Source: Escherichia coli (GTDB lineage: Bacteria; Pseudomonadota; Gammaproteobacteria; Enterobacterales; Enterobacteriaceae). From it: 64,000 nt of DNA. The position numbers and the translations under genes are program-made. How positions within the stretch are numbered: position 1 is the stretch's first letter; every line of letters starts with the position of its first letter. Under the pieces are notes generated by a model. It saw nothing but the letters and a program-made list of their open reading frames with translations. It had not been told where the DNA came from and did no database searches. Where the stretch lies: the NCBI RefSeq assembly GCF_050920415.1, contig NZ_CP169309.1; one strand, 5' to 3'. This document shows positions 1 through 49,741 of this stretch, in pieces.

Positions 1-150
1 GTCCACGGCATGGAAATCCTGGACCCAATAGCGATGGAAAACGCCATAAATGCGATTCCGGGCGTGGTGACTGTTGGCTTATTTGCTAACCGTGGCGCGG
101 ACGTTGCGCTGATTGGCACACCTGACGGTGTCAAAACCATTGTGAAATGA
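1..150 (+). CDS. rpiA: ribose-5-phosphate isomerase A, C-terminal 49 codons (partial, starts before window)
   Basis: Frame 1 translates to ...[29 protein letters not shown] then TGA at 148-150; recognised as RpiA C-terminus; position upstream of serA as in E. coli. Confidence 0.85.
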
Positions 151-405
151 TCTGACGGGGGAATCTCCCCCGTTAAAAAAATTCTCTTCGTTAAATTTGG
201 TGACATGTGTCACGTTTTTACCTGGCTATTGTCGATTGCTCTAAATAAATCCTCTAATCCAGCATATTCATCCAAGAAAAACCTTTGCGTGATATTTCCT
301 CAACATCGCGACGCAAACGTTCATATTGCCGCAATATTATTTTTTGATATGTTGAAAGGCGGATGCAAATCCGCACACAACATTTCAAAAGACAGGATTG
401 GGTAA

Positions 406-1638
406 ATGGCAAAGGTATCGCTGGAGAAAGACAAGATTAAGTTTCTGCTGGTAGAAGGCGTGCACCAAAAGGCGCTTGAAAGCCTTCGTGCAGCGGGTTA
501 CACCAACATCGAATTTCACAAAGGCGCGCTGGATGATGAACAATTAAAAGAATCCATCCGCGATGCCCACTTCATCGGCCTGCGATCCCGTACCCATCTG
601 ACTGAAGACGTGATCAACGCCGCAGAAAAACTGGTCGCTATTGGCTGTTTCTGTATCGGAACAAACCAGGTTGATCTGGATGCAGCTGCAAAACGCGGGA
701 TCCCGGTATTTAACGCACCGTTCTCTAATACGCGCTCTGTTGCGGAGCTGGTAATTGGCGAACTTCTGCTGCTATTGCGCGGCGTACCGGAAGCCAACGC
801 TAAAGCGCACCGTGGTGTCTGGAACAAGCTGGCAGCTGGCTCTTTTGAAGCGCGCGGCAAAAAGCTGGGTATCATCGGCTATGGTCATATTGGTACACAG
901 TTGGGCATTCTGGCTGAATCGCTGGGAATGTATGTTTACTTTTATGATATTGAAAACAAACTACCGCTGGGCAACGCCACTCAGGTACAGCATCTTTCTG
1001 ATCTGCTGAATATGAGCGATGTGGTGAGTTTGCATGTGCCAGAGAATCCGTCCACCAAAAATATGATGGGCGCGAAAGAGATTTCGCTAATGAAGCCCGG
1101 CTCGTTGCTGATTAATGCCTCGCGCGGAACGGTGGTGGATATTCCGGCGCTGTGTGACGCGCTGGCGAGCAAACACCTGGCAGGTGCGGCAATCGATGTC
1201 TTTCCGACGGAACCGGCGACCAACAGCGATCCGTTTACTTCGCCGCTTTGCGAGTTCGACAACGTCCTTCTGACGCCACATATTGGCGGTTCGACTCAGG
1301 AAGCACAGGAGAATATCGGCCTGGAAGTTGCGGGTAAATTGATCAAGTATTCTGACAATGGCTCAACGCTCTCTGCGGTGAACTTCCCGGAAGTCTCGCT
1401 GCCACTGCACGGTGGGCGTCGTCTGATGCACATCCACGAAAACCGTCCGGGCGTGCTGACTGCGCTGAACAAAATCTTTGCCGAGCAGGGCGTTAACATC
1501 GCCGCGCAATATCTGCAAACTTCCGCCCAGATGGGTTATGTGGTTATCGATATTGAAGCTGATGAAGACGTTGCCGAAAAAGCGCTGCAGGCAATGAAAG
1601 TTATTCCGGGCACCATTCGCGCCCGTCTGCTGTACTAA
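406..1638 (+). CDS. serA: D-3-phosphoglycerate dehydrogenase
   Basis: 410 aa ORF from track; recognised SerA sequence with NAD-binding GxGxxG (GIIGYGHIG) and C-terminal ACT domain. Confidence 0.97.
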   Translation: MAKVSLEKDKIKFLLVEGVHQKALESLRAAGYTNIEFHKGALDDEQLKESIRDAHFIGLRSRTHLTEDVINAAEKLVAIGCFCIGTNQVDLDAAAKRGIPVFNAPFSNTRSVAELVIGELLLLLRGVPEANAKAHRGVWNKLAAGSFEARGKKLGIIGYGHIGTQLGILAESLGMYVYFYDIENKLPLGNATQVQHLSDLLNMSDVVSLHVPENPSTKNMMGAKEISLMKPGSLLINASRGTVVDIPALCDALASKHLAGAAIDVFPTEPATNSDPFTSPLCEFDNVLLTPHIGGSTQEAQENIGLEVAGKLIKYSDNGSTLSAVNFPEVSLPLHGGRRLMHIHENRPGVLTALNKIFAEQGVNIAAQYLQTSAQMGYVVIDIEADEDVAEKALQAMKVIPGTIRARLLY

Positions 1639-1659
1639 TTCCCCTTCTCTGAAAATTAA

Positions 1660-1689
1660 CGGGCAGGTCACTGACTTGCCCGTTTTTTT
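1660..1689 (+). terminator. Rho-independent terminator after serA
   Basis: GC stem cgggcaggtcactgacttgcccg followed by T7 run, 20 nt after serA stop. Confidence 0.6.
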
Positions 1690-1824
1690 ATCCCTTTTCC
1701 CGCGCATGTCACTGCCATTTGTAGTGCGCTGCAATTGCCTTTGCGAGTCTGCTCGAAGAAATAAATTAAAGCCAGATCAATGCGTTGTGCTTATTTAAAG
1801 AGAGTTTACGATGGCAGGGCAGCA

Positions 1825-1965
1825 TGGGGCTGTAACGGTAAAGCCCTCACCGAAGCGAGGGCTTGAAGGAGAAGGGTTATGATGCGACTCGTCATCATAC
1901 TGATTGTACTGTTACTCATAAGTTTCCCAGCTTATTAACAGTCAGTCACAGGGGAGGAGCAATCC
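1825..1965 (-). ncRNA. sibC: SibC antisense sRNA (antitoxin of ibsC); ends approximate
   Basis: Established knowledge that Sib RNAs are about 140 nt and fully antisense to the ibs ORF; boundaries not determinable from sequence alone; hairpin aagccctcgcttcggtgagggctt on minus strand near 1840-1863. Confidence 0.45.
1879..1938 (+). CDS. ibsC: Ibs-family type I toxin, 19 aa hydrophobic peptide
   Basis: ATG ATG CGA ... TAT TAA encodes MMRLVIILIVLLLISFPAY; SD-like gaaggagaaggg upstream; matches Ibs toxin family and the known serA-ygfA intergenic location of ibsC/sibC; not in ORF track (too short). Confidence 0.75.
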   Translation: MMRLVIILIVLLLISFPAY

Positions 1966-2038
1966 TCCCTTACCCTTACTCACTAAATTAGGTCAAAGAA
2001 TCAACGATGTCAATCAGGGCGATGCAGGTGTGTCGCCC

Positions 2039-2587
2039 TCACCACTCCCAGACTTTCGACGGCGTAACTACTGCAGGAAGTGGAATATCCCACTCTTCAA
2101 CGGGGAGTTTTTCTACCAACTGACAATCATGCGCATAACCCACCGGTTGCATTTGATAGCGCTGCCAGTTTTGTAAGGTCCGATCATAAAAACCACCGCC
2201 CATTCCCAGGCGCTGACCGTACTCATCAAAGGCGACCAGCGGTGTGATCAACACGTCTAATCGGGAAAGGGGTAGCACGTCACGCACATCCAGTTTTGGC
2301 TCATGGATCTTCAACCTGTTCATCACCAGTTCGCTTTGCGGATGGTAATTCAGGAACAGCAAATTACCGGCACTAAAGGGATGCAAAACTGGAAGATATA
2401 CGCGCTTACCGGCGCGCCAGAGTTGTTCTATGAGTGGCTGGGTGTCGAGTTCGCCATCAAAAGAGAGGAATACAGCGACCGTATGCGCCATCACCACCGG
2501 GGGATACGTCATCATCCGGGTAGCAGCTTGTTGACCCATTTCTTGCTGTTGTTTCGGCGTTAACGCACGACGACGTTGCCGAATCAT
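2039..2587 (-). CDS. ygfA: 5-formyltetrahydrofolate cyclo-ligase
   Basis: Track ORF 2039..2641; start trimmed to MIRQRRRALTP (18 codons in) to match the 182 aa E. coli Fau/YgfA protein; lies downstream of ssrS in the same transcript direction. Confidence 0.88.
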   Translation of the reverse strand: MIRQRRRALTPKQQQEMGQQAATRMMTYPPVVMAHTVAVFLSFDGELDTQPLIEQLWRAGKRVYLPVLHPFSAGNLLFLNYHPQSELVMNRLKIHEPKLDVRDVLPLSRLDVLITPLVAFDEYGQRLGMGGGFYDRTLQNWQRYQMQPVGYAHDCQLVEKLPVEEWDIPLPAVVTPSKVWEW

Positions 2588-2659
2588 TTTGCGGATTTCT
2601 TGTCGAGATAATGTCAGTGGGATTTCTGGTAGTTGCGTCATGGCTGGTGCCAGATAAGA

Positions 2660-2845
2660 AGGGAATCTCCGAGATGCCGCCGCAGGCTGTAACCCTTGAA
2701 CCCTTGGTTCAAGGTGAATGTGTCGTCACAGTTTTAAGGCTTCTCGGACGGACCGAGCATGCTCACCAACCGCGGAGCGCCACATTCTTGTGGTATGAAA
2801 TATCGGCTCAGGGGACTGGCCCGCTTGCGAACATCTCAGAGAAAT
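2660..2845 (-). ncRNA. ssrS: 6S RNA (RNA polymerase sigma-70 holoenzyme regulator)
   Basis: Minus-strand sequence reads AUUUCUCUGAGAUGUUCGCAAGCGGGCCAGUCCCCUGAGCC...CAUCUCGGAGAUUCCCU, recognised as E. coli 6S RNA; between zapA and ygfA as in K-12; ends within about 2 nt. Confidence 0.95.
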
Positions 2846-2886
2846 TTTGTCTTCACGGTTACTCTACCACAGTAAACCGAAAAGTG

Positions 2887-3282
<396 letters not shown>

Positions 3283-3383
3283 CTATAGCTACCCTGATGA
3301 GAAGAGACAAGCCCTTTTCTGGTCCACCAGGGCCCAAAGTGGTAGCATATCATGAATATTCCTCCCTTTGACGACGAATGCTT

Positions 3384-3962
3384 ATGTCTATACAGAACGA
3401 AATGCCTGGTTACAACGAAATGAACCAGTATCTGAACCAACAAGGGACGGGTCTGACCCCTGCTGAGATGCATGGTTTAATCAGTGGGATGATATGTGGT
3501 GGTAACGATGACAGCTCATGGCTGCCACTGCTTCACGACCTGACGAACGAAGGCATGGCTTTCGGTCATGAGCTGGCACAGGCATTGCGCAAAATGCACT
3601 CTGCTACCAGCGATGCCCTGCAGGATGACGGCTTCCTTTTTCAGCTTTATCTGCCTGATGGCGATGATGTCAGCGTTTTCGATCGGGCTGATGCGCTGGC
3701 AGGTTGGGTTAATCACTTCCTGCTTGGTCTTGGCGTTACGCAACCGAAGCTGGACAAGGTGACCGGCGAAACCGGTGAAGCCATCGACGATCTGCGTAAC
3801 ATCGCGCAGCTGGGCTACGACGAAGACGAAGATCAGGAAGAGCTGGAAATGTCGCTTGAAGAGATCATCGAGTACGTCCGTGTTGCCGCGCTGTTATGCC
3901 ACGACACCTTTACTCATCCGCAACCGACCGCGCCAGAAGTACAAAAACCGACTCTACACTAA
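3384..3962 (+). CDS. ygfB: UPF0149 family protein YgfB
   Basis: Track ORF 3378..3962; second ATG at 3384 gives [17 protein letters not shown]... matching the 192 aa YgfB. Confidence 0.9.
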
Positions 3963-3987
3963 AAACAAAAAACGTAAGGAGAGTGTT

Positions 3988-5313
3988 ATGAGTGAGATAT
4001 CCCGGCAAGAGTTTCAGCGTCGCCGTCAGGCCCTGGTGGAGCAAATGCAACCCGGCAGCGCCGCGCTGATTTTTGCTGCACCAGAAGTAACACGTAGCGC
4101 CGACAGCGAATACCCCTATCGTCAGAACAGTGACTTCTGGTACTTCACCGGCTTTAACGAACCGGAAGCGGTGCTGGTGCTGATTAAAAGCGACGACACT
4201 CATAACCACAGCGTTTTGTTTAACCGCGTTCGCGACCTGACGGCAGAGATCTGGTTTGGTCGTCGCCTAGGCCAGGATGCCGCGCCAGAGAAACTGGGCG
4301 TTGACCGCGCACTGGCATTCAGCGAAATCAATCAGCAACTTTATCAACTACTTAATGGTCTGGATGTGGTGTACCACGCCCAGGGCGAATATGCATATGC
4401 TGATGAAATCGTGAACAGCGCGCTGGAAAAACTGCGTAAAGGTTCGCGACAAAATCTCACCGCACCGGCAACGATGATCGACTGGCGTCCCATTGTTCAT
4501 GAAATGCGCCTGTTCAAATCACCAGAAGAGATTGCCGTACTTCGCCGCGCGGGGGAAATCACCGCCCTGGCGCATACCCGGGCGATGGAAAAATGCCGTC
4601 CGGGAATGTTCGAGTACCACCTGGAAGGCGAAATTCACCACGAATTTAACCGCCACGGTGCGCGCTATCCTTCCTATAACACCATTGTCGGCAGCGGTGA
4701 AAACGGCTGCATTCTGCACTACACCGAAAACGAGTGTGAACTGCGTGACGGTGACCTGGTGTTGATTGACGCGGGTTGTGAATACAAAGGTTACGCTGGC
4801 GATATTACCCGCACCTTCCCGGTTAACGGTAAATTCACTCAGGCTCAGCGTGAAATCTACGACATTGTGCTGGAGTCTCTTGAAACCAGCCTGCGCCTGT
4901 ATCGTCCGGGAACGTCCATTCAGGAAGTCACCGGTGAAGTGGTGCGCATCATGGTTAGCGGCCTGGTAAAAATCGGCATCCTGAAAGGTGATGTTGAAGA
5001 ACTGATCGCCCAAAACGCCCATCGTCCTTTCTTTATGCATGGCCTTAGCCACTGGTTAGGTCTGGATGTCCATGATGTTGGCATTTATGGTCAGGATCGC
5101 TCGCGCATTCTGGAACCGGGCATGGTACTGACCGTAGAGCCGGGGCTGTACATTGCGCCGGATGCGGATGTACCAGAACAATATCGCGGTATCGGCATTC
5201 GTATCGAAGACGACATTGTGATTACCGAAACCGGCAATGAAAACCTCACCGCCAGCGTAGTGAAAAAGCCGGGAGAAATTGAAGCGTTGATGGCTGCTGC
5301 GAGAAAGCAATGA
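3988..5313 (+). CDS. pepP: Xaa-Pro aminopeptidase (aminopeptidase P II)
   Basis: Track ORF 3775..5313 is an N-terminally extended frame; real start at ATG 3988 (MSEISRQEFQRRRQAL...) preceded by aaggagag SD; 441 aa; metal-binding M24 motifs (HGLSHWLGLDVHD). Confidence 0.95.
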   Translation: MSEISRQEFQRRRQALVEQMQPGSAALIFAAPEVTRSADSEYPYRQNSDFWYFTGFNEPEAVLVLIKSDDTHNHSVLFNRVRDLTAEIWFGRRLGQDAAPEKLGVDRALAFSEINQQLYQLLNGLDVVYHAQGEYAYADEIVNSALEKLRKGSRQNLTAPATMIDWRPIVHEMRLFKSPEEIAVLRRAGEITALAHTRAMEKCRPGMFEYHLEGEIHHEFNRHGARYPSYNTIVGSGENGCILHYTENECELRDGDLVLIDAGCEYKGYAGDITRTFPVNGKFTQAQREIYDIVLESLETSLRLYRPGTSIQEVTGEVVRIMVSGLVKIGILKGDVEELIAQNAHRPFFMHGLSHWLGLDVHDVGIYGQDRSRILEPGMVLTVEPGLYIAPDADVPEQYRGIGIRIEDDIVITETGNENLTASVVKKPGEIEALMAAARKQ

Positions 5314-6488
5314 GCGTAATCATCGTCGGTGGCGGCATGGCGGGCGCGACGCTGGCGCTGGCTATTTCCCGGTTAAGTCACGGGGCGCTGCCGGTACATT
5401 TGATTGAAGCGACCGCGCCAGAGTCTCATGCTCATCCGGGCTTTGATGGACGAGCGATAGCGCTGGCGGCGGGCACCTGTCAGCAACTGGCGCGCATCGG
5501 CGTCTGGCAATCTCTGGCAGATTGCGCAACCAACATCACTACCGTTCATGTCAGCGATCGTGGTCATGCCGGATTCGTCACCCTCGCCGCAGAAGATTAC
5601 CAACTGGCGGCGTTGGGGCAGGTTGTCGAATTGCATAATGTCGGGCAACGGCTGTTTGCGCTATTGCGCAAAGCGCCTGGCGTAACGCTGCATTGTCCGG
5701 ATCGCGTGGCTAACGTTGCCCGTACTCAGAGTCACGTTGAAGTGACGCTGGAGAGTGGCGAGACGCTGACGGGCTGCGTGCTGGTAGCCGCTGATGGCAC
5801 CCATTCCGCGTTAGCCACCGCGTGCGGTGTTGACTGGCAGCAGGAGCCTTACGAACAACTGGCCGTGATTGCGAACGTTGCGACTTCCGTTGCGCACGAA
5901 GGCCGGGCGTTTGAGCGTTTCACACAATATGGCCCGTTGGCGATGTTGCCGATGTCTGACGGACGCTGTTCGCTGGTCTGGTGTCATCCACTGGAACGGC
6001 GCGAAGAGGTGCTGTCGTGGAGCGACGAGACGTTTTGCCGTGAACTCCAGTCGGCCTTTGGTTGGCGACTTGGGAAAATTACCCACGCTGGTAAACGCAG
6101 TGCTTACCCGCTGGCGTTAACCCGCGCCGCCAGACCTGTTACCCATCGTACCGTGCTGGTGGGCAATGCGGCGCAAACTCTGCACCCGATTGCCGGGCAA
6201 GGGTTCAACCTCGGTATGCGGGATGTGATGAGCCTTGCGGAAACCCTGACTCAGGCGCAAGAGCGCGGAGAAGACATAGGTGATTACGGCGTCTTGTGCC
6301 GTTATCAGCAGCGTCGACAGAGCGATCGAGAAGCAACCATCGGCGTCACTGACAGCCTTGTACATCTTTTTGCCAACCGTTGGACGCCGCTGGTTGTCGG
6401 GCGCAACATCGGGCTGATGGCAATGGAATTATTCACTCCGGCACGCGATGTGCTGGCGCAGCGCACCCTCGGTTGGGTGGCGCGTTAA
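5310..6488 (+). CDS. ubiH: 2-octaprenyl-6-methoxyphenol hydroxylase (FAD-dependent)
   Basis: 392 aa; N-terminal FAD fold GGGMAGATLA; start overlaps pepP stop (ATGA). Confidence 0.95.
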   Translation: MSVIIVGGGMAGATLALAISRLSHGALPVHLIEATAPESHAHPGFDGRAIALAAGTCQQLARIGVWQSLADCATNITTVHVSDRGHAGFVTLAAEDYQLAALGQVVELHNVGQRLFALLRKAPGVTLHCPDRVANVARTQSHVEVTLESGETLTGCVLVAADGTHSALATACGVDWQQEPYEQLAVIANVATSVAHEGRAFERFTQYGPLAMLPMSDGRCSLVWCHPLERREEVLSWSDETFCRELQSAFGWRLGKITHAGKRSAYPLALTRAARPVTHRTVLVGNAAQTLHPIAGQGFNLGMRDVMSLAETLTQAQERGEDIGDYGVLCRYQQRRQSDREATIGVTDSLVHLFANRWTPLVVGRNIGLMAMELFTPARDVLAQRTLGWVAR

Positions 6489-9786: not shown

Positions 9787-12660
9787 ATGACACAGACGTT
9801 AAGCCAGCTTGAAAACAGCGGCGCTTTTATTGAACGCCATATCGGACCGGACGCCGCGCAACAGCAAGAAATGCTGAATGCCGTTGGCGCACAATCGTTA
9901 AACGCGCTGACCGGCCAGATTGTGCCGAAAGATATTCAGCTTGCGACCCCGCCGCAGGTTGGCGCACCGGCGACCGAATACGCCGCGCTGGCGGAACTCA
10001 AGGCTATTGCCAGTCGCAATAAACGCTTCACGTCTTACATCGGCATGGGTTACACCGCCGTGCAGCTACCGCCGGTTATCCTGCGTAACATGCTGGAAAA
10101 TCCGGGCTGGTATACCGCGTATACTCCGTATCAACCTGAAGTCTCCCAGGGCCGCCTTGAAGCACTGCTTAACTTCCAGCAGGTAACGCTGGATTTGACC
10201 GGGCTGGATATGGCCTCTGCTTCTTTGTTGGATGAAGCCACCGCTGCCGCCGAAGCAATGGCGATGGCAAAACGCGTCAGTAAACTGAAAAATGCCAACC
10301 GCTTCTTCGTTGCTTCTGACGTGCATCCGCAAACCTTAGATGTAGTACGTACACGCGCAGAAACCTTTGGTTTTGAAGTGATTGTCGACGATGCGCAAAA
10401 AGTTCTCGATCACCAGGACGTCTTCGGCGTGCTGTTACAGCAGGTTGGCACTACCGGTGAAATTCACGACTACACTGCGCTTATCAGCGAACTGAAATCA
10501 CGCAAAATTGTAGTCAGCGTCGCCGCCGATATTATGGCGCTGGTGCTGTTAACTGCACCGGGTAAACAGGGCGCGGATATTGTCTTTGGTTCGGCGCAAC
10601 GCTTTGGCGTACCGATGGGCTACGGTGGCCCACATGCGGCATTCTTTGCGGCGAAAGATGAATACAAACGCTCAATGCCGGGCCGTATTATTGGTGTATC
10701 GAAAGATGCAGCTGGCAATACCGCGCTGCGCATGGCGATGCAGACTCGCGAGCAACATATTCGCCGTGAGAAAGCGAACTCCAACATTTGTACTTCGCAG
10801 GTACTGCTGGCAAACATCGCCAGCCTGTATGCCGTTTATCACGGCCCGGTTGGCCTGAAACGTATCGCTAATCGCATTCACCGTCTGACCGATATCCTGG
10901 CAGCGGGCCTGCAACAAAAAGGTCTGAAGCTGCGCCATGCGCACTATTTCGATACTTTGTGTGTGGAAGTGGCCGACAAAGCGGGCGTGCTGGCGCGTGC
11001 CGAAGCGGCTGAAATCAACCTGCGTAGCGATATTCTGAATGCGGTTGGGATCACCCTTGATGAAACCACCACGCGCGAAAACGTGATGCAGCTTTTCAGC
11101 GTACTGCTGGGCGATAATCACGGACTGGACATCGACACGCTGGACAAAGACGTGGCTCACGACAGCCGTTCTATTCAGCCTGCAATGCTGCGCGATGACG
11201 AAATTCTCACCCATCCGGTGTTTAATCGCTACCACAGCGAAACCGAAATGATGCGCTATATGCACTCGCTGGAGCGTAAAGATCTGGCGCTGAATCAGGC
11301 GATGATCCCGCTGGGTTCCTGCACCATGAAACTGAACGCCGCCGCCGAGATGATCCCAATCACCTGGCCGGAATTTGCCGAACTGCACCCGTTCTGCCCG
11401 CCGGAACAGGCCGAAGGTTATCAGCAGATGATCGCCCAACTGGCTGACTGGCTGGTGAAACTGACCGGTTACGACGCCGTCTGTATGCAGCCGAACTCTG
11501 GCGCTCAGGGCGAATACGCGGGGCTGCTGGCGATTCGTCATTATCATGAAAGCCGCAACGAAGGGCATCGCGATATCTGCCTGATCCCGGCTTCTGCGCA
11601 CGGCACTAACCCGGCTTCCGCGCATATGGCAGGAATGCAGGTGGTGGTTGTGGCGTGTGATAAAAACGGCAACATCGATCTGACTGACCTGCGCGCGAAA
11701 GCGGAGCAGGCGGGCGATAATCTCTCCTGCATTATGGTGACCTATCCTTCCACCCACGGCGTGTACGAAGAAACGATCCGTGAAGTGTGTGAAATCGTGC
11801 ATCAGTTCGGCGGTCAGGTTTACCTTGATGGCGCGAACATGAACGCCCAGGTTGGTATCACTTCGCCGGGTTTTATTGGTGCGGACGTTTCGCACCTTAA
11901 CCTGCATAAAACTTTCTGCATTCCGCACGGCGGTGGTGGTCCGGGTATGGGACCGATCGGCGTGAAAGCGCATTTGGCACCGTTTGTTCCGGGTCATAGT
12001 GTGGTGCAAATCGAAGGCATGTTAACCCGTCAGGGCGCGGTTTCTGCGGCACCGTTCGGTAGCGCTTCTATTCTGCCAATTAGCTGGATGTACATCCGCA
12101 TGATGGGCGCAGAAGGGCTGAAAAAAGCAAGCCAGGTGGCAATCCTCAACGCCAACTATATTGCCAGCCGCCTGCAGGATGCCTTCCCGGTGCTGTATAC
12201 CGGTCGCGACGGCCGCGTGGCGCACGAATGTATTCTCGATATTCGCCCGCTGAAAGAAGAAACCGGCATCAGCGAGCTGGATATTGCCAAGCGCCTGATC
12301 GACTATGGTTTCCACGCGCCGACTATGTCGTTCCCGGTGGCGGGGACGCTGATGGTTGAACCGACTGAATCTGAAAGCAAAGTGGAACTGGATCGTTTTA
12401 TCGATGCGATGCTGTCTATCCGCGCAGAAATCGACCAGGTGAAAGCCGGTGTTTGGCCGCTGGAAGATAACCCGCTGGTGAACGCGCCGCACATTCAGAG
12501 CGAACTGGTCGCCGAGTGGGCGCATCCGTACAGCCGTGAAGTTGCAGTATTCCCGGCAGGCGTGGCAGACAAATACTGGCCGACAGTGAAACGTCTGGAT
12601 GATGTTTACGGGGACCGTAACCTGTTCTGCTCCTGCGTACCGATTAGCGAATACCAGTAA
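9787..12660 (+). CDS. gcvP: glycine dehydrogenase (decarboxylating), P protein
   Basis: Track ORF 9703..12660 trimmed to ATG 9787 ([21 protein letters not shown]...) giving 957 aa. Confidence 0.97.
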
Positions 12661-16139: not shown

Positions 16140-16326
<187 letters not shown>

Positions 16327-48472: not shown

Positions 48473-49684
48473 TTATTCGGTTGCCAGCCAGCTTAACGGG
48501 ATTGCAGCGTACATCGCGGCACAGGTCACCAGGTGAGATTTCCAGGTTTTTTCGTTAGGTGCATGCGCTTCAGGTTCTTTACCCGGGCCAAAGCCGATCA
48601 CCGGAATGCCGTGACGACCCATGATAGATACGCCGTTAGTTGAGAAGGTCCACTTATCAACAACCGGCGCTTTGCCAAACAGCCCTTCGTAGGCGTTCAC
48701 CAGGGCTTTAACAGTGAAGTGATCTTCTTCCACTTTCCAGGTCGGGAAGTAGCATTCGGTTGGGTAAACCAGGCCAGTCCAGGAAGGACGGTCGTAGTTG
48801 TACATAGAAACAACCGCGTTAGCTTTCTGTACCGCAGGCAGGGCGCGGATTTCGTCCAGCGCGCCTTCCCAGGTTTCGCCCCAGGTCAGACGACGGTCAA
48901 TTGAAACTGCGCAGCTGTCTGCTACAGCGCAACGGCTTGGAGATGTGAAGAAGATTTCAGAAACGGTGAGGGTGCCTTTGCCGAGGAATTCGTCATAGCC
49001 CAGGCGCTGGGAGAGTTCCTGCAATTCGCCAAGAATCGGACCCATTTTGAAAATGGCGTTATCACCGCGTTCTGGCGCAGAGCCGTGGCAGCTAACGCCC
49101 TGAACATCAATGCGAATTTCCATACGACCGCGTTGACCACGATATACCTGGCAGTCGGTTGGTTCGGTACTGACCACAAATTCCGGGCGAATGCCAGATT
49201 GTTCAATAATGTACTGCCAGCACAGACCGTCGCAGTCTTCTTCCTGCACAGTGCCGGTGACCAGCAGGGTGTATTCATCTTCCAGACCGAGGTCTTTAAT
49301 GATTTTACCGGCATAAACCATAGAGGCCATGCCGCCTTCCTGGTCGGAAGTACCGCGGCCACCGATCAGTTCATCAGTTTCCATGCCTTCGTACGGATCG
49401 AAGTCCCAGTTTTTGATGTTGCCAATGCCGACGGTATCAATATGAGCGTCCATTGCCACCAGACGCGGGCCGTGGCCGATATAACCGAGAACGTTGCCCA
49501 TCGGGTCGATTTCAACTTTATCGAAGCCGACTTTTTCCATCTCTTCTTTAATACGATGTACTACGCGTTTTTCATCGCAGCTTTCACTGGGAATAGCAAC
49601 CATATCGCGCAGAAAGCGAGTCATGTCTGCCTGGTAATCTTTTGCTTTTTCAAGAATCAGTTTGAATGGAATATTCTTAGCCAT
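48473..49684 (-). CDS. ygeY: M20-family peptidase / deacylase YgeY
   Basis: 403 aa ORF recognised as YgeY. Confidence 0.9.
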
Positions 49685-49741
49685 TATTTTTCTCCAGATT
49701 TTTTACTCCCCGTTTTGCGGGGAGCAGTTCCAATAGGGTGA

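What the first reader, a model, noticed from the sequence alone, without database searches (positions are those of the whole stretch)
1825..1965. Type I toxin-antitoxin locus ibsC/sibC hidden in the serA-ygfA intergenic region
A 19-codon hydrophobic ORF (MMRLVIILIVLLLISFPAY) with a good SD lies in what the ORF track shows as empty intergenic DNA. It matches the Ibs toxin family, whose antisense Sib sRNA is encoded on the opposite strand. The peptide has Pro where I recall Ser in K-12 IbsC, a minor variant.
Basis: partly seen in the sequence, partly recalled or inferred. Interest (0 to 1): 0.45.

Follow-up and report, generated by a model that had tools for sequence, protein, structure and literature searches.

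The report
Known ibsC/sibC toxin-antitoxin locus
This is the well-known E. coli ibsC/sibC type I toxin-antitoxin pair, a 19-residue membrane toxin gene fully overlapped by an antisense RNA antitoxin, sitting in its usual place between serA and fau; it is real and intact but ordinary, and its 'Pro instead of Ser' is the commonest E. coli allele.

Summary
A 19-codon ORF (window 1879-1938, +; MMRLVIILIVLLLISFPAY) with an AAGGAG Shine-Dalgarno lies between serA and fau (ygfA). The minus strand gives a full-length Rfam SIB_RNA hit of 140.5 bits against a gathering score of 56 (E = 5e-30). Window 1977->1837 aligns without gaps to the curated 141-nt sibC of MG1655, with 5 differences. The window is 100% identical over 25 kb to E. 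coli MFDS1022581, where RefSeq already annotates this CDS as ibsC. The locus is present in 5,424 of 5,426 complete E. coli genomes.

- Ser17->Pro is a whole-codon swap (AGC->CCA). It falls on SibC nucleotides 49-51, in the apical loop of target-recognition domain 1, which Han et al. 2010 showed helps set target specificity. It is therefore more than a trivial change.
- Pro17 is not a rare variant. The CCA allele is in 2,789 genomes (51%) and the K-12 AGC allele in 2,165 (40%). A related Escherichia species also has CCA.

In its own genome this SibC stays distinct from the five paralogous ibs genes. This is already known biology, so interest is low.

The parts
1785..1812 (+). Inferred ibsC promoter: -35 TTGTGC (1785-1790), 16-nt spacer, -10 TACGAT (1807-1812)
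   Evidence: Placed from the mapped ibsC +1 (see next part). Both hexamers are invariant in the window, K-12 and both O157 copies (alignment A1). I could not see Han 2010 Fig. 4B, so the hexamer assignment is my inference. The generic promoter scan did not flag it.
1819..1977 (+). ibsC toxin mRNA (about 159 nt)
   Evidence: Transferred from K-12. Han 2010 report a 159-nt mRNA with an 18-nt 5' overhang beyond the SibC 3' end, and G50/G51/G53 pairing with SibC C110/C109/C107. Those pairings fit window coordinates only if +1 = 1819. The fold has MFE -65.4 kcal/mol, z = -5.6, with the SD unpaired.
1865..1871 (+). Shine-Dalgarno GAAGGAG of ibsC; it is the target of SibC TRD2
   Evidence: Sequence read. 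It is the complement of SibC C107UCCUUC113 described in Han 2010 and is identical to K-12.
1879..1938 (+). ibsC ORF: 19 codons plus stop, MMRLVIILIVLLLISFPAY
   Evidence: Translation. It is 18/19 identical to MG1655 IbsC. The identical sequence is annotated ibsC, WP_071525914.1, in NZ_CP169399.1.
1927..1929 (.). Codon 17 (CCA, Pro) on the + strand, equal to SibC nt 49-51 (UGG) on the - strand; this is the polymorphic specificity trinucleotide
   Evidence: Allele census: CCA 2,789, AGC 2,168, GGA 1,844 and TTG-CCA 346 copies.
1837..1977 (-). SibC antitoxin sRNA (141 nt; +1 = 1977, 3' end = 1837)
   Evidence: Ungapped alignment to the curated MG1655 sibC b4446, 136/141 identical. Rfam RF00113 gives 140.5 bits. 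MFE -54.7 kcal/mol, z = -4.8. Covariation in 8 of 33 pairs across 13 Sib copies.
1910..1932 (-). TRD1 of SibC (+46..+68), the P5 hairpin with apical loop CUGGGAAA
   Evidence: Domain limits from Han 2010. Loop position from the folds.
1863..1879 (-). TRD2 of SibC (+99..+115), covering the ibsC SD and start codon
   Evidence: Domain limits from Han 2010. Identical to K-12.
1841..1864 (-). SibC 3' terminator hairpin (AAGCCCUCGC-UUCG-GUGAGGGCUU)
   Evidence: Fold. Compensatory changes in this stem across paralogues. The generic terminator scan missed it because the T-run is short.
1985..2013 (-). SibC promoter: -35 TTGACA (2013-2008), 17-nt spacer, -10 TAATTT (1990-1985)
   Evidence: Read. Invariant against K-12. 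It is included in the Rfam model as positions 1-36. In K-12, E-sigmaS binds the sibC promoter region (PMC4447067).
1950..1971 (+). 3' hairpin of the ibsC mRNA (AGGGGAGGA-GCAA-UCCUCCCUU), the complement of SibC stem P2
   Evidence: Fold.

Best explanation
This is the chromosomal ibsC/sibC type I toxin-antitoxin module of E. coli, at its normal position between serA and fau.

The + strand makes a roughly 159-nt mRNA (1819-1977). Its 19-codon ORF encodes IbsC, a single-helix hydrophobic inner-membrane peptide. When over-made, IbsC depolarises the membrane and lowers ATP.

The - strand makes the 141-nt SibC RNA (1977->1837). SibC is perfectly complementary to the whole ORF, the SD and the start codon. 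It first contacts the mRNA through two exposed elements:
- the TRD1 hairpin loop, against codons 16-18;
- the single-stranded TRD2, against the SD and start codon.

Pairing then spreads, translation is blocked, and the duplex is cut by RNase III. Toxin is therefore made only if SibC falls relative to the ibsC mRNA.

Shown here: the sequence anatomy, family membership of the RNA, orthology, the conserved fold, and that all parts are intact.

Inferred from K-12 and Salmonella experiments: transcription, toxicity, repression, and the target.

This copy carries the CCA/UGG allele at codon 17 (SibC nt 49-51). That changes toxin residue 17 to Pro and changes the TRD1 loop at the same time. Cognate pairing is preserved automatically because both molecules come from the same DNA.
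For: Family and orthology:
- Rfam SIB_RNA full-length hit, 140.5 bits against GA 56; it is the only one in the window.
- Ungapped 136/141 identity to the curated MG1655 sibC, and 18/19 identity to IbsC.
- Same neighbours as K-12: rpiA-serA on one side, fau-ssrS-zapA on the other.
- PGAP names the CDS ibsC.
- SD, start codons, promoter hexamers and TRD2 are identical to K-12.

Structure:
- SibC and the ibsC mRNA fold into the same architecture as the K-12 alleles, with z = -4.8 and -5.6. The SD is unpaired and nt 49-51 sit in the apical loop.
- 8 of 33 consensus pairs covary across 13 Sib copies.

Mechanism from the literature:
- TRD1/TRD2, transcript ends and RNase III probing: Han 2010, PMC2943612.
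- Translational block and RNase III: PMC4147584.
- Depolarisation by IbsC: PMC8309996.
- Salmonella IbsA binds Fo subunits a and b and needs a basic residue 3 and Leu11 (preprint 10.1101/2025.05.26.656083). This peptide has Arg3 and Leu11.

Pro17 is compatible with toxicity: K-12 IbsE (SFPTY) is annotated 'toxic peptide' and IbsB is SFPAY.

Conservation: the locus is in 5,424 of 5,426 genomes.
Against: - There are no expression data for this strain, so transcription of either strand is inferred.
- The toxicity of the Pro17 IbsC allele itself has not been tested in anything I could read. Mok 2010 and Fozo 2008 are not held.
- No protein HMM match could be obtained. NCBIfam returned nothing for the 20-aa extended peptide, and the Pfam tool needs at least 30 aa. 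I treat this as uninformative.
- The generic promoter/terminator scan flagged none of the TA signals.
- In the Pro allele the predicted ibsC mRNA loop opposite TRD1 shrinks from UUCAGC to UCCC and loses the YUNR motif that Han et al. thought might aid first contact. This could slow TRD1 recognition.
Confidence: 0.93

Rival explanations
1. The locus is a silent or decayed relic. SibC may still be made, but the toxin is no longer expressed or no longer toxic, for example because Pro17 or the altered promoter spacer disables it.
For: - The ibsC promoter spacer differs from K-12 (AAAGAGAG against AATGGGGA), and the upstream 1700-1765 segment is unrelated to K-12.
- The C-terminal residues of IbsC matter for toxicity according to the summary of Mok 2010 in PMC8309996.
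- The Pro allele loses the predicted mRNA-loop YUNR motif.
Against: - Both promoter hexamers, the SD, both ATGs, the ORF length, Arg3 and Leu11 are intact.
- The same promoter spacer and the same peptide occur in thousands of genomes and in the E. coli species representative.
- Pro17 occurs naturally in IbsB and in IbsE, which is annotated as toxic.
- The Pro allele is also present in another Escherichia species, which argues for long-term maintenance.
Confidence: 0.05
2. The functional unit is only the sRNA. SibC acts on other targets in trans, and the short ORF opposite is incidental.
For: - SibC is abundant and sigmaS-bound in K-12.
- A 19-codon ORF on its own is not statistically remarkable.
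Against: - All 13 copies compared keep an intact 18-19-codon ORF. Each has MM(K/R) at the start, a hydrophobic core and an (A/T)Y end, despite many nucleotide changes.
- The SD sits at a fixed distance from the start codon.
- Toxicity of Ibs peptides and cognate repression by Sib are shown experimentally in K-12 and Salmonella.
Confidence: 0.02

Closest known systems
ibsC/sibC of E. coli K-12 MG1655 (b4665/b4446)
   Same: - Same chromosomal position, serA-fau.
- SibC has the same length (141 nt) and aligns without gaps, 136/141 identical.
- The peptide is 18/19 identical.
- Same SD, TRD2, promoter hexamers and predicted folds.
   Different: - SibC +49-51 is UGG instead of GCU, which gives IbsC Pro17 instead of Ser17.
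- +30 is U instead of A. +88 is G instead of A, which is a silent change in Leu4.
- The ibsC promoter spacer and the 1700-1765 upstream spacer differ.
- Because TRD2 is identical, and Han 2010 found one intact TRD is enough, the K-12 and window alleles should still cross-repress. This is an inference.
fau-proximal second Ibs/Sib copy of two-copy E. coli strains (e.g. O157:H7 OK1, WP_100635201.1; E. coli species representative SCPM-O-B-8794)
   Same: - Same CCA codon 17.
- The ibsC promoter segment 1774-1818 is 97.8% identical to that copy, against about 88% for K-12.
- The second copy in the species representative encodes exactly the window peptide.
   Different: - The window has a single copy. 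About 1,560 genomes have two.
- The O157 copy has Leu16 (TTG), CTG at codon 13 and a different P2 loop.
- The window locus is therefore a mosaic of 'K-12-like' and 'copy-2-like' segments.
Paralogous Ibs/Sib pairs (IbsA, B, D, E of K-12; five further copies in the source genome)
   Same: Same family: Rfam SIB_RNA at 138-149 bits, an 18-19-aa hydrophobic peptide, and complete antisense overlap.
   Different: - Different loci (hldE-yqiK and mdtA-yegL).
- Different TRD1 and TRD2 sequences.
- The longest perfect complementarity of the window SibC to the non-cognate ibs genes of its own genome is at most 10 nt around TRD1 and at most 13 nt around TRD2, against 47 and 37 nt for the cognate within the stretches searched.
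Other cis-antisense type I TA systems (hok/sok, ldr/rdl, AapA/IsoA)
   Same: A small membrane toxin repressed by an antisense RNA through loop-initiated pairing, followed by RNase III cleavage.
   Different: In Ibs/Sib the antisense RNA spans the entire ORF (PMC8594479), so every change in the recognition loop also recodes the toxin.

Membership tests
Sib RNA (Rfam RF00113) | Covariance-model score at or above the curated gathering score, over the full model | tested here: met
   140.5 bits against 56, model positions 1-147 of 147, E = 5e-30, minus strand 2013..1863.
Sib RNA (Rfam RF00113) | About 140-nt transcript co-linear with an experimentally defined Sib RNA | tested here: met
   Window 1977->1837 aligns without gaps to the curated 141-nt MG1655 sibC, 136/141 identical.
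Sib RNA (Rfam RF00113) | Conserved secondary structure: closing stem P1, P2 hairpin, P5/TRD1 hairpin, P6 hairpin and terminator | tested here: met
   The MFE fold has the same architecture as K-12. In the 13-copy alignment, 8 of 33 pairs keep pairing through double changes.
Sib RNA (Rfam RF00113) | The RNA is actually transcribed | not testable with these tools
   No transcriptome data are available for this strain. The promoter is identical to K-12, where SibC is seen on northern blots.
Ibs toxin family | 18-19-residue peptide with an MM(K/R/H) start, a hydrophobic core and a polar/aromatic (A/T)Y end | tested here: met
   MMRLVIILIVLLLISFPAY. It is 18/19 identical to IbsC and aligns with IbsA-E and with 8 further copies.
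Ibs toxin family | Match to a curated protein profile (Pfam Ibs_toxin or NCBIfam) | tested here: inconclusive
   NCBIfam returned no family for the peptide extended by one upstream codon to 20 aa. The Pfam tool needs at least 30 aa and the listing of cluster members at least 20 aa. PGAP nevertheless names the identical CDS IbsC.
Ibs toxin family | Residues needed for activity in the one alanine scan I could read: a basic residue at position 3 and Leu at position 11 | tested here: met
   Arg3 and Leu11 are present. The criterion comes from Salmonella IbsA (preprint) and is extrapolated to IbsC.
Ibs toxin family | Growth arrest or membrane depolarisation on overexpression | not testable with these tools
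   This needs an experiment. It has been shown for K-12 IbsC (reviewed in PMC8309996).
Type I toxin-antitoxin system | The antisense RNA is complementary to the toxin's translation-initiation region and/or ORF | tested here: met
   SibC (1977->1837) covers the SD (1865-1871), the start (1879) and the whole ORF to 1938, with 141 nt of perfect complementarity.
Type I toxin-antitoxin system | The antitoxin RNA represses toxin synthesis in vivo | not testable with these tools
   Shown for K-12 SibC/ibsC by co-transformation assays (Han 2010).
ibsC/sibC orthologue (as opposed to another paralogue) | Located between serA and fau/ygfA | tested here: met
   serA is at 406-1638 (+) and fau at 2039-2641 (-). 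The layout is the same in K-12.
ibsC/sibC orthologue (as opposed to another paralogue) | Recognition domains identical to the K-12 SibC reference | tested here: not met
   TRD2 is identical. TRD1 differs at +49-51, UGG against GCU. This is allelic variation within the orthologous locus: four alleles account for essentially all E. coli copies. It does not argue against orthology.

The most novel reading that the evidence does not exclude
Codon 17 of ibsC, which is also SibC loop nt 49-51, may act as a population-level 'address label' kept diverse by selection on RNA-RNA recognition. Toxin residue 17 (Ser, Pro, Gly, and Ala, His or Gln in paralogues) would then be largely a passenger of that selection.

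Support:
- All three nucleotides differ between the main alleles AGC, CCA and GGA.
- Together with a fourth allele that has CCA plus Leu16, these account for essentially all of the roughly 7,000 copies.
- No genome has two CCA copies, and only about 4 extra same-allele places were seen among roughly 1,560 two-copy genomes.
- Every Sib copy within a genome has a different loop.

Against:
- Tandem copies share a nearly identical TRD2 (1 nt different), and one TRD is enough for repression, so the copies are probably not orthogonal.
- The pattern could come from a single old duplication plus shared ancestry, because the genomes are not independent samples.
- Han 2010 already noted that the TRDs lie in variable regions.
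Probability: 0.25. Interest if true: 0.35.

Novelty: already known. Interest (0 to 1): 0.1.

Why it matters
For the scan, this is a correct call on a very small gene that mechanical ORF lists miss, and the antitoxin RNA half is still missing from the public annotation of this genome. Biologically it adds nothing new in kind. Ibs/Sib has been described since 2008, and this locus is present in virtually every E. coli.

The modest take-home is a correction of a K-12-centred view. The reference Ser17/GCU allele is the minority form. The polymorphic codon is also a tested specificity element of the antitoxin's recognition loop. Experiments on SibC-ibsC recognition and IbsC toxicity done with the K-12 allele may therefore not transfer exactly to most E. 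coli strains.

Tried and rejected
1. Translating 1880-1939 gave the wrong frame. The correct frame starts at 1879.

2. The generic promoter/terminator scan found only the serA terminator and none of the TA signals. Its thresholds (at least 4 of 6 matches per hexamer, at least 5 T in the tail) are too strict for TAATTT, TACGAT and the short U-tails. I treat it as uninformative.

3. Protein-profile and cluster look-ups failed on length:
- The listing of cluster members refuses sequences under 20 aa.
- NCBIfam returned nothing for the 20-aa extension.
- The Pfam tool needs at least 30 aa.

4. Fozo 2008, Mok 2010 and the Fozo MMBR review are not held. Their content is cited only through papers that summarise them.

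5. I first read the identity bands as meaning the allele was rare: only 1 genome at 99% or more over 401 nt, and 20 at 99% or more over 141 nt. That was wrong for codon 17. The exact-word census shows CCA is the commonest allele. What is rare is the full haplotype, because the locus is a mosaic.

6. I tested whether the UGG loop creates cross-talk with the five paralogues in the same genome. It does not: perfect complementarity is at most 10 nt at TRD1 and at most 13 nt at TRD2.

7. I looked for the origin of the divergent 1700-1765 spacer in the O157 inter-copy spacer. Only 16-nt and 11-nt matches turned up, so it remains unexplained.

8. In the cross-species pattern scan, most of the 36 hits were chance matches in unrelated AT-rich genomes. 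Only the Escherichia and Citrobacter loci were used, and one of those (Citrobacter MAG L022) is not an ibs ORF.

Full report
**What is in the sequence**

Between serA (406-1638, +) and fau/ygfA (2039-2641, -) there is a 400-nt intergenic region. It holds a 19-codon ORF at 1879-1938 (+) that translates to MMRLVIILIVLLLISFPAY. AAGGAG lies at 1866-1871, 7 nt upstream of the first of two ATGs. The ORF is missing from the mechanical ORF list only because that list has a 20-aa floor.

**The opposite strand**

A search of 1-6000 against all Rfam families gives a full-length SIB_RNA (RF00113) hit at 2013..1863 on the minus strand. It scores 140.5 bits against a gathering score of 56, with E = 5e-30. 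It is the only SIB hit in the 64-kb window.

**Source and existing annotation**

The first 25 kb of the window are 100% identical to E. coli strain MFDS1022581, NZ_CP169399.1, positions 865,961-890,960. In that RefSeq record the same 60 nt are annotated 'ibsC, type I toxin-antitoxin system toxin IbsC' (WP_071525914.1). The neighbours are rpiA-serA on one side and fau-ssrS-zapA-ygfB-pepP on the other, exactly as in K-12. No sibC RNA is annotated in that record, although the curated MG1655 record has one. The locus is found in 5,424 of 5,426 complete E. coli genomes.

**Anatomy on window coordinates**

The curated MG1655 sibC is 141 nt. Window 1977->1837 aligns to it without a gap. There are five differences: +30 A>U, +49-51 GCU>UGG, and +88 A>G.

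Han et al. 2010 (PMC2943612) give several landmarks:
- C107UCCUUC113 as the core of TRD2. In my numbering this is the complement of GAAGGAG at 1865-1871, which confirms the numbering.
- A 159-nt ibsC mRNA with an 18-nt 5' overhang beyond the SibC 3' end.
- G50/G51/G53 of the mRNA pairing with SibC C110/C109/C107.

These fit only if ibsC +1 is window 1819 and the 3' end is about 1977.

Upstream of the two starts lie these promoter elements:
- ibsC: TTGTGC, 16 nt, TACGAT (1785-1812).
- sibC: TTGACA, 17 nt, TAATTT (2013-1985).

All four hexamers are invariant between the window, K-12 and both O157 copies. The hexamer assignment for ibsC is my inference, because figures are not held.

**Structure**

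The window SibC and K-12 SibC fold into the same architecture: a closing stem, a P2 hairpin, the long TRD1 hairpin with an 8-nt apical loop, a P6 hairpin, a single-stranded TRD2 and a terminator hairpin. MFE is -54.7 and -55.3 kcal/mol, with z = -4.8 and -5.5.

Across 13 Sib copies, 8 of 33 consensus pairs keep pairing through changes on both sides, in the P2, P5 and terminator stems. The 13 copies are six from the source genome, five from K-12 and two from O157.

The ibsC mRNA also folds alike in both alleles, with the SD unpaired.

**The Ser/Pro difference**

The difference is a whole-codon replacement, AGC (K-12) to CCA. Because SibC is antisense to the entire ORF, codon 17 is also SibC nt 49-51.

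Han et al. changed exactly G49CU51 to UGC (TRD1). Separately, they changed C107-C113 (TRD2) to the SibD sequences. Either change let SibC repress ibsD. Only changing both abolished repression of ibsC. In the folds, nt 49-51 sit in the apical loop: CGCUGAAA in K-12 and CUGGGAAA here.

The variant therefore touches a tested recognition element. Cognate pairing is kept automatically because both RNAs come from the same DNA. TRD2 is unchanged, so I infer that the K-12 and window alleles would still cross-repress.

There is one predicted side effect. The mRNA loop opposite TRD1 shrinks from UUCAGC, which contains the YUNR motif UUCA, to UCCC, which has none. The SibC loop keeps a YUNR motif (CUGA becomes CUGG). 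This is a prediction only.

**How common is the allele?**

Identity bands misled me at first. Only 2 genomes are identical over the 141 nt, and 20 are within one mismatch.

I then ran a census with 30-nt queries centred on codon 17. Megablast's 28-nt word forces an exact match there. The counts are:

| Allele | Peptide end | Count |
|---|---|---|
| TTC-CCA | SFPAY | 2,789 genomes (51%) |
| TTC-AGC (K-12) | SFSAY | 2,165 genomes (40%) |
| TTC-GGA | SFGAY | 1,843 genomes |
| TTG-CCA | SLPAY | 346 genomes |

The four alleles together account for essentially all copies at this locus: about 7,150 places, against 6,984 found with the 141-nt query. About 1,560 genomes carry two tandem copies. No genome has two CCA copies, and only about four extra same-allele places were seen.

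Pro17 is therefore the majority allele and K-12 is the minority form.

Beyond E. coli strains:
- Escherichia sp. MOD1-EC7003 has CCA at serA-fau (MMRLAIILIVLLLISFPAY) and shares the window's base at +30.
- Citrobacter sp. MGH106 has GCA (Ala) at the same locus.
- The E. coli species representative has a Gly copy plus a Pro copy, and the Pro copy's peptide is identical to the window's.

This weakly suggests that CCA is old in Escherichia.

**Mosaic structure**

- The ibsC promoter segment 1774-1818 is 97.8% identical to the fau-proximal copy of O157:H7, but only about 88% identical to K-12 and to the O157 serA-proximal copy.
- The 3' part, 1939-2013, is closest to K-12 (98.7%).
- The 1700-1765 spacer matches neither.

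This explains why the full haplotype is rare while each feature on its own is common.

**Paralogues and cross-talk**

The source genome has six Ibs/Sib loci: one at serA-fau, two at hldE-yqiK and three at mdtA-yegL. K-12 has five in total. All six have Rfam SIB hits of 138-149 bits. Their peptides differ mainly at residues 3-5 and 13-18.

| Target of the window SibC | Longest perfect pairing around TRD1 | Around TRD2 |
|---|---|---|
| Cognate ibsC (within the stretches searched) | 47 nt | 37 nt |
| Non-cognate ibs genes of the same genome | at most 10 nt | at most 13 nt |

The TRD1-core duplex energy is -38.5 kcal/mol for the cognate, against -26.3 or weaker for the others. The UGG allele therefore does not create an obvious cross-reaction.

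**Mechanism (from the literature)**

- Sib RNAs block the ribosome-binding site and ORF, and the duplex is processed by RNase III (PMC4147584; Han 2010).
- IbsC overexpression depolarises the membrane within minutes and induces psp genes (PMC8309996).
- A 2025 preprint reports that Salmonella IbsA binds the a and b subunits of Fo and blocks proton translocation. Only His3 and Leu11 are essential in an alanine scan, and the authors note that position 3 is always basic. The window peptide has Arg3 and Leu11.
- Pro at position 17 occurs naturally in IbsB (SFPAY) and in IbsE (SFPTY). IbsE is annotated 'toxic peptide'.
- In K-12, E-sigmaS binds the sibC promoter, and SibC levels depend on rpoS in a temperature-dependent way (PMC4447067).

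**Verdict**

The feature is an intact, ordinary member of a well-described family, and its toxin half is already annotated in the public record.

The useful additions are:
- exact coordinates for both transcripts;
- the recognition that the 'variant' codon is a tested specificity element of the antitoxin's recognition loop;
- the finding that it is the majority allele.

Copy-number variation of Ibs loci and their being missed by ORF callers are both already documented (Fozo 2010, PMC2887945).

Novelty: already known. Interest: low.

Noticed in passing
window 1837-1977 (-); NZ_CP169399.1 867797-867937: The public RefSeq record of the source genome annotates the ibsC CDS but not the sibC antitoxin RNA. 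It does annotate the neighbouring 6S RNA. The curated MG1655 record has sibC.
   Followed up: yes
window 1700-1765: The spacer between the serA terminator (1658-1684) and the ibsC promoter is unlike K-12 and O157: it is 12 nt longer and shares only a 16-nt match. Only about 68 of 5,426 genomes are at least 95% identical over the whole 401-nt intergenic query. Its origin is unexplained.
   Followed up: partly
window 1774-1818 compared with L003 (O157:H7 OK1) 3016-3060: The ibsC promoter segment is 97.8% identical to the fau-proximal copy of two-copy strains but only about 88% identical to K-12. The single-copy locus here looks like a recombinant or deletion derivative of a two-copy arrangement.
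   Followed up: partly
L008 (NZ_CP169399.1) 49013-49725: The source genome has three tandem IbsB-like 18-aa genes between mdtA and yegL, where K-12 has two loci. Position 15, just before the conserved Pro, is unusual in each (…SYPAY, …SLPAY, …SWPAY). Each has its own Sib RNA at 138-140 bits.
   Followed up: partly
L007 (NZ_CP169399.1) 11149-11208: The hldE-proximal Ibs copy has His at position 17 (CAC; MMKFVIILIVLLLISFHAY). The same peptide is in Escherichia sp. E1V33. This is yet another state of the same variable codon.
   Followed up: no
window 2662-2845 (-): 6S RNA (ssrS), Rfam 138.1 bits, directly downstream of fau as in K-12.
   Followed up: no
window 16150-16227 (-): Rfam naRNA4 (nucleoid-associated ncRNA 4, REP-derived) hit at 69.8 bits against a gathering score of 59.5.
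   Followed up: no
window 59393-59466 (+): tRNA-Gly (anticodon CCC).
   Followed up: no
window 2017-2038: An inverted repeat, GGGCGA…TCGCCC, sits between the fau stop codon (2039-2041) and the sibC -35 box (2008-2013). It is part of the repeated unit, because it follows both copies in O157. It may serve as the fau terminator.
   Followed up: no
L035 (Citrobacter sp. MGH106) 1431-1490: An Ibs gene (MMKSVIILIVLLLVSFAAY) lies between serA and fau in Citrobacter, so the serA-fau Ibs/Sib locus predates the genus Escherichia.
   Followed up: no
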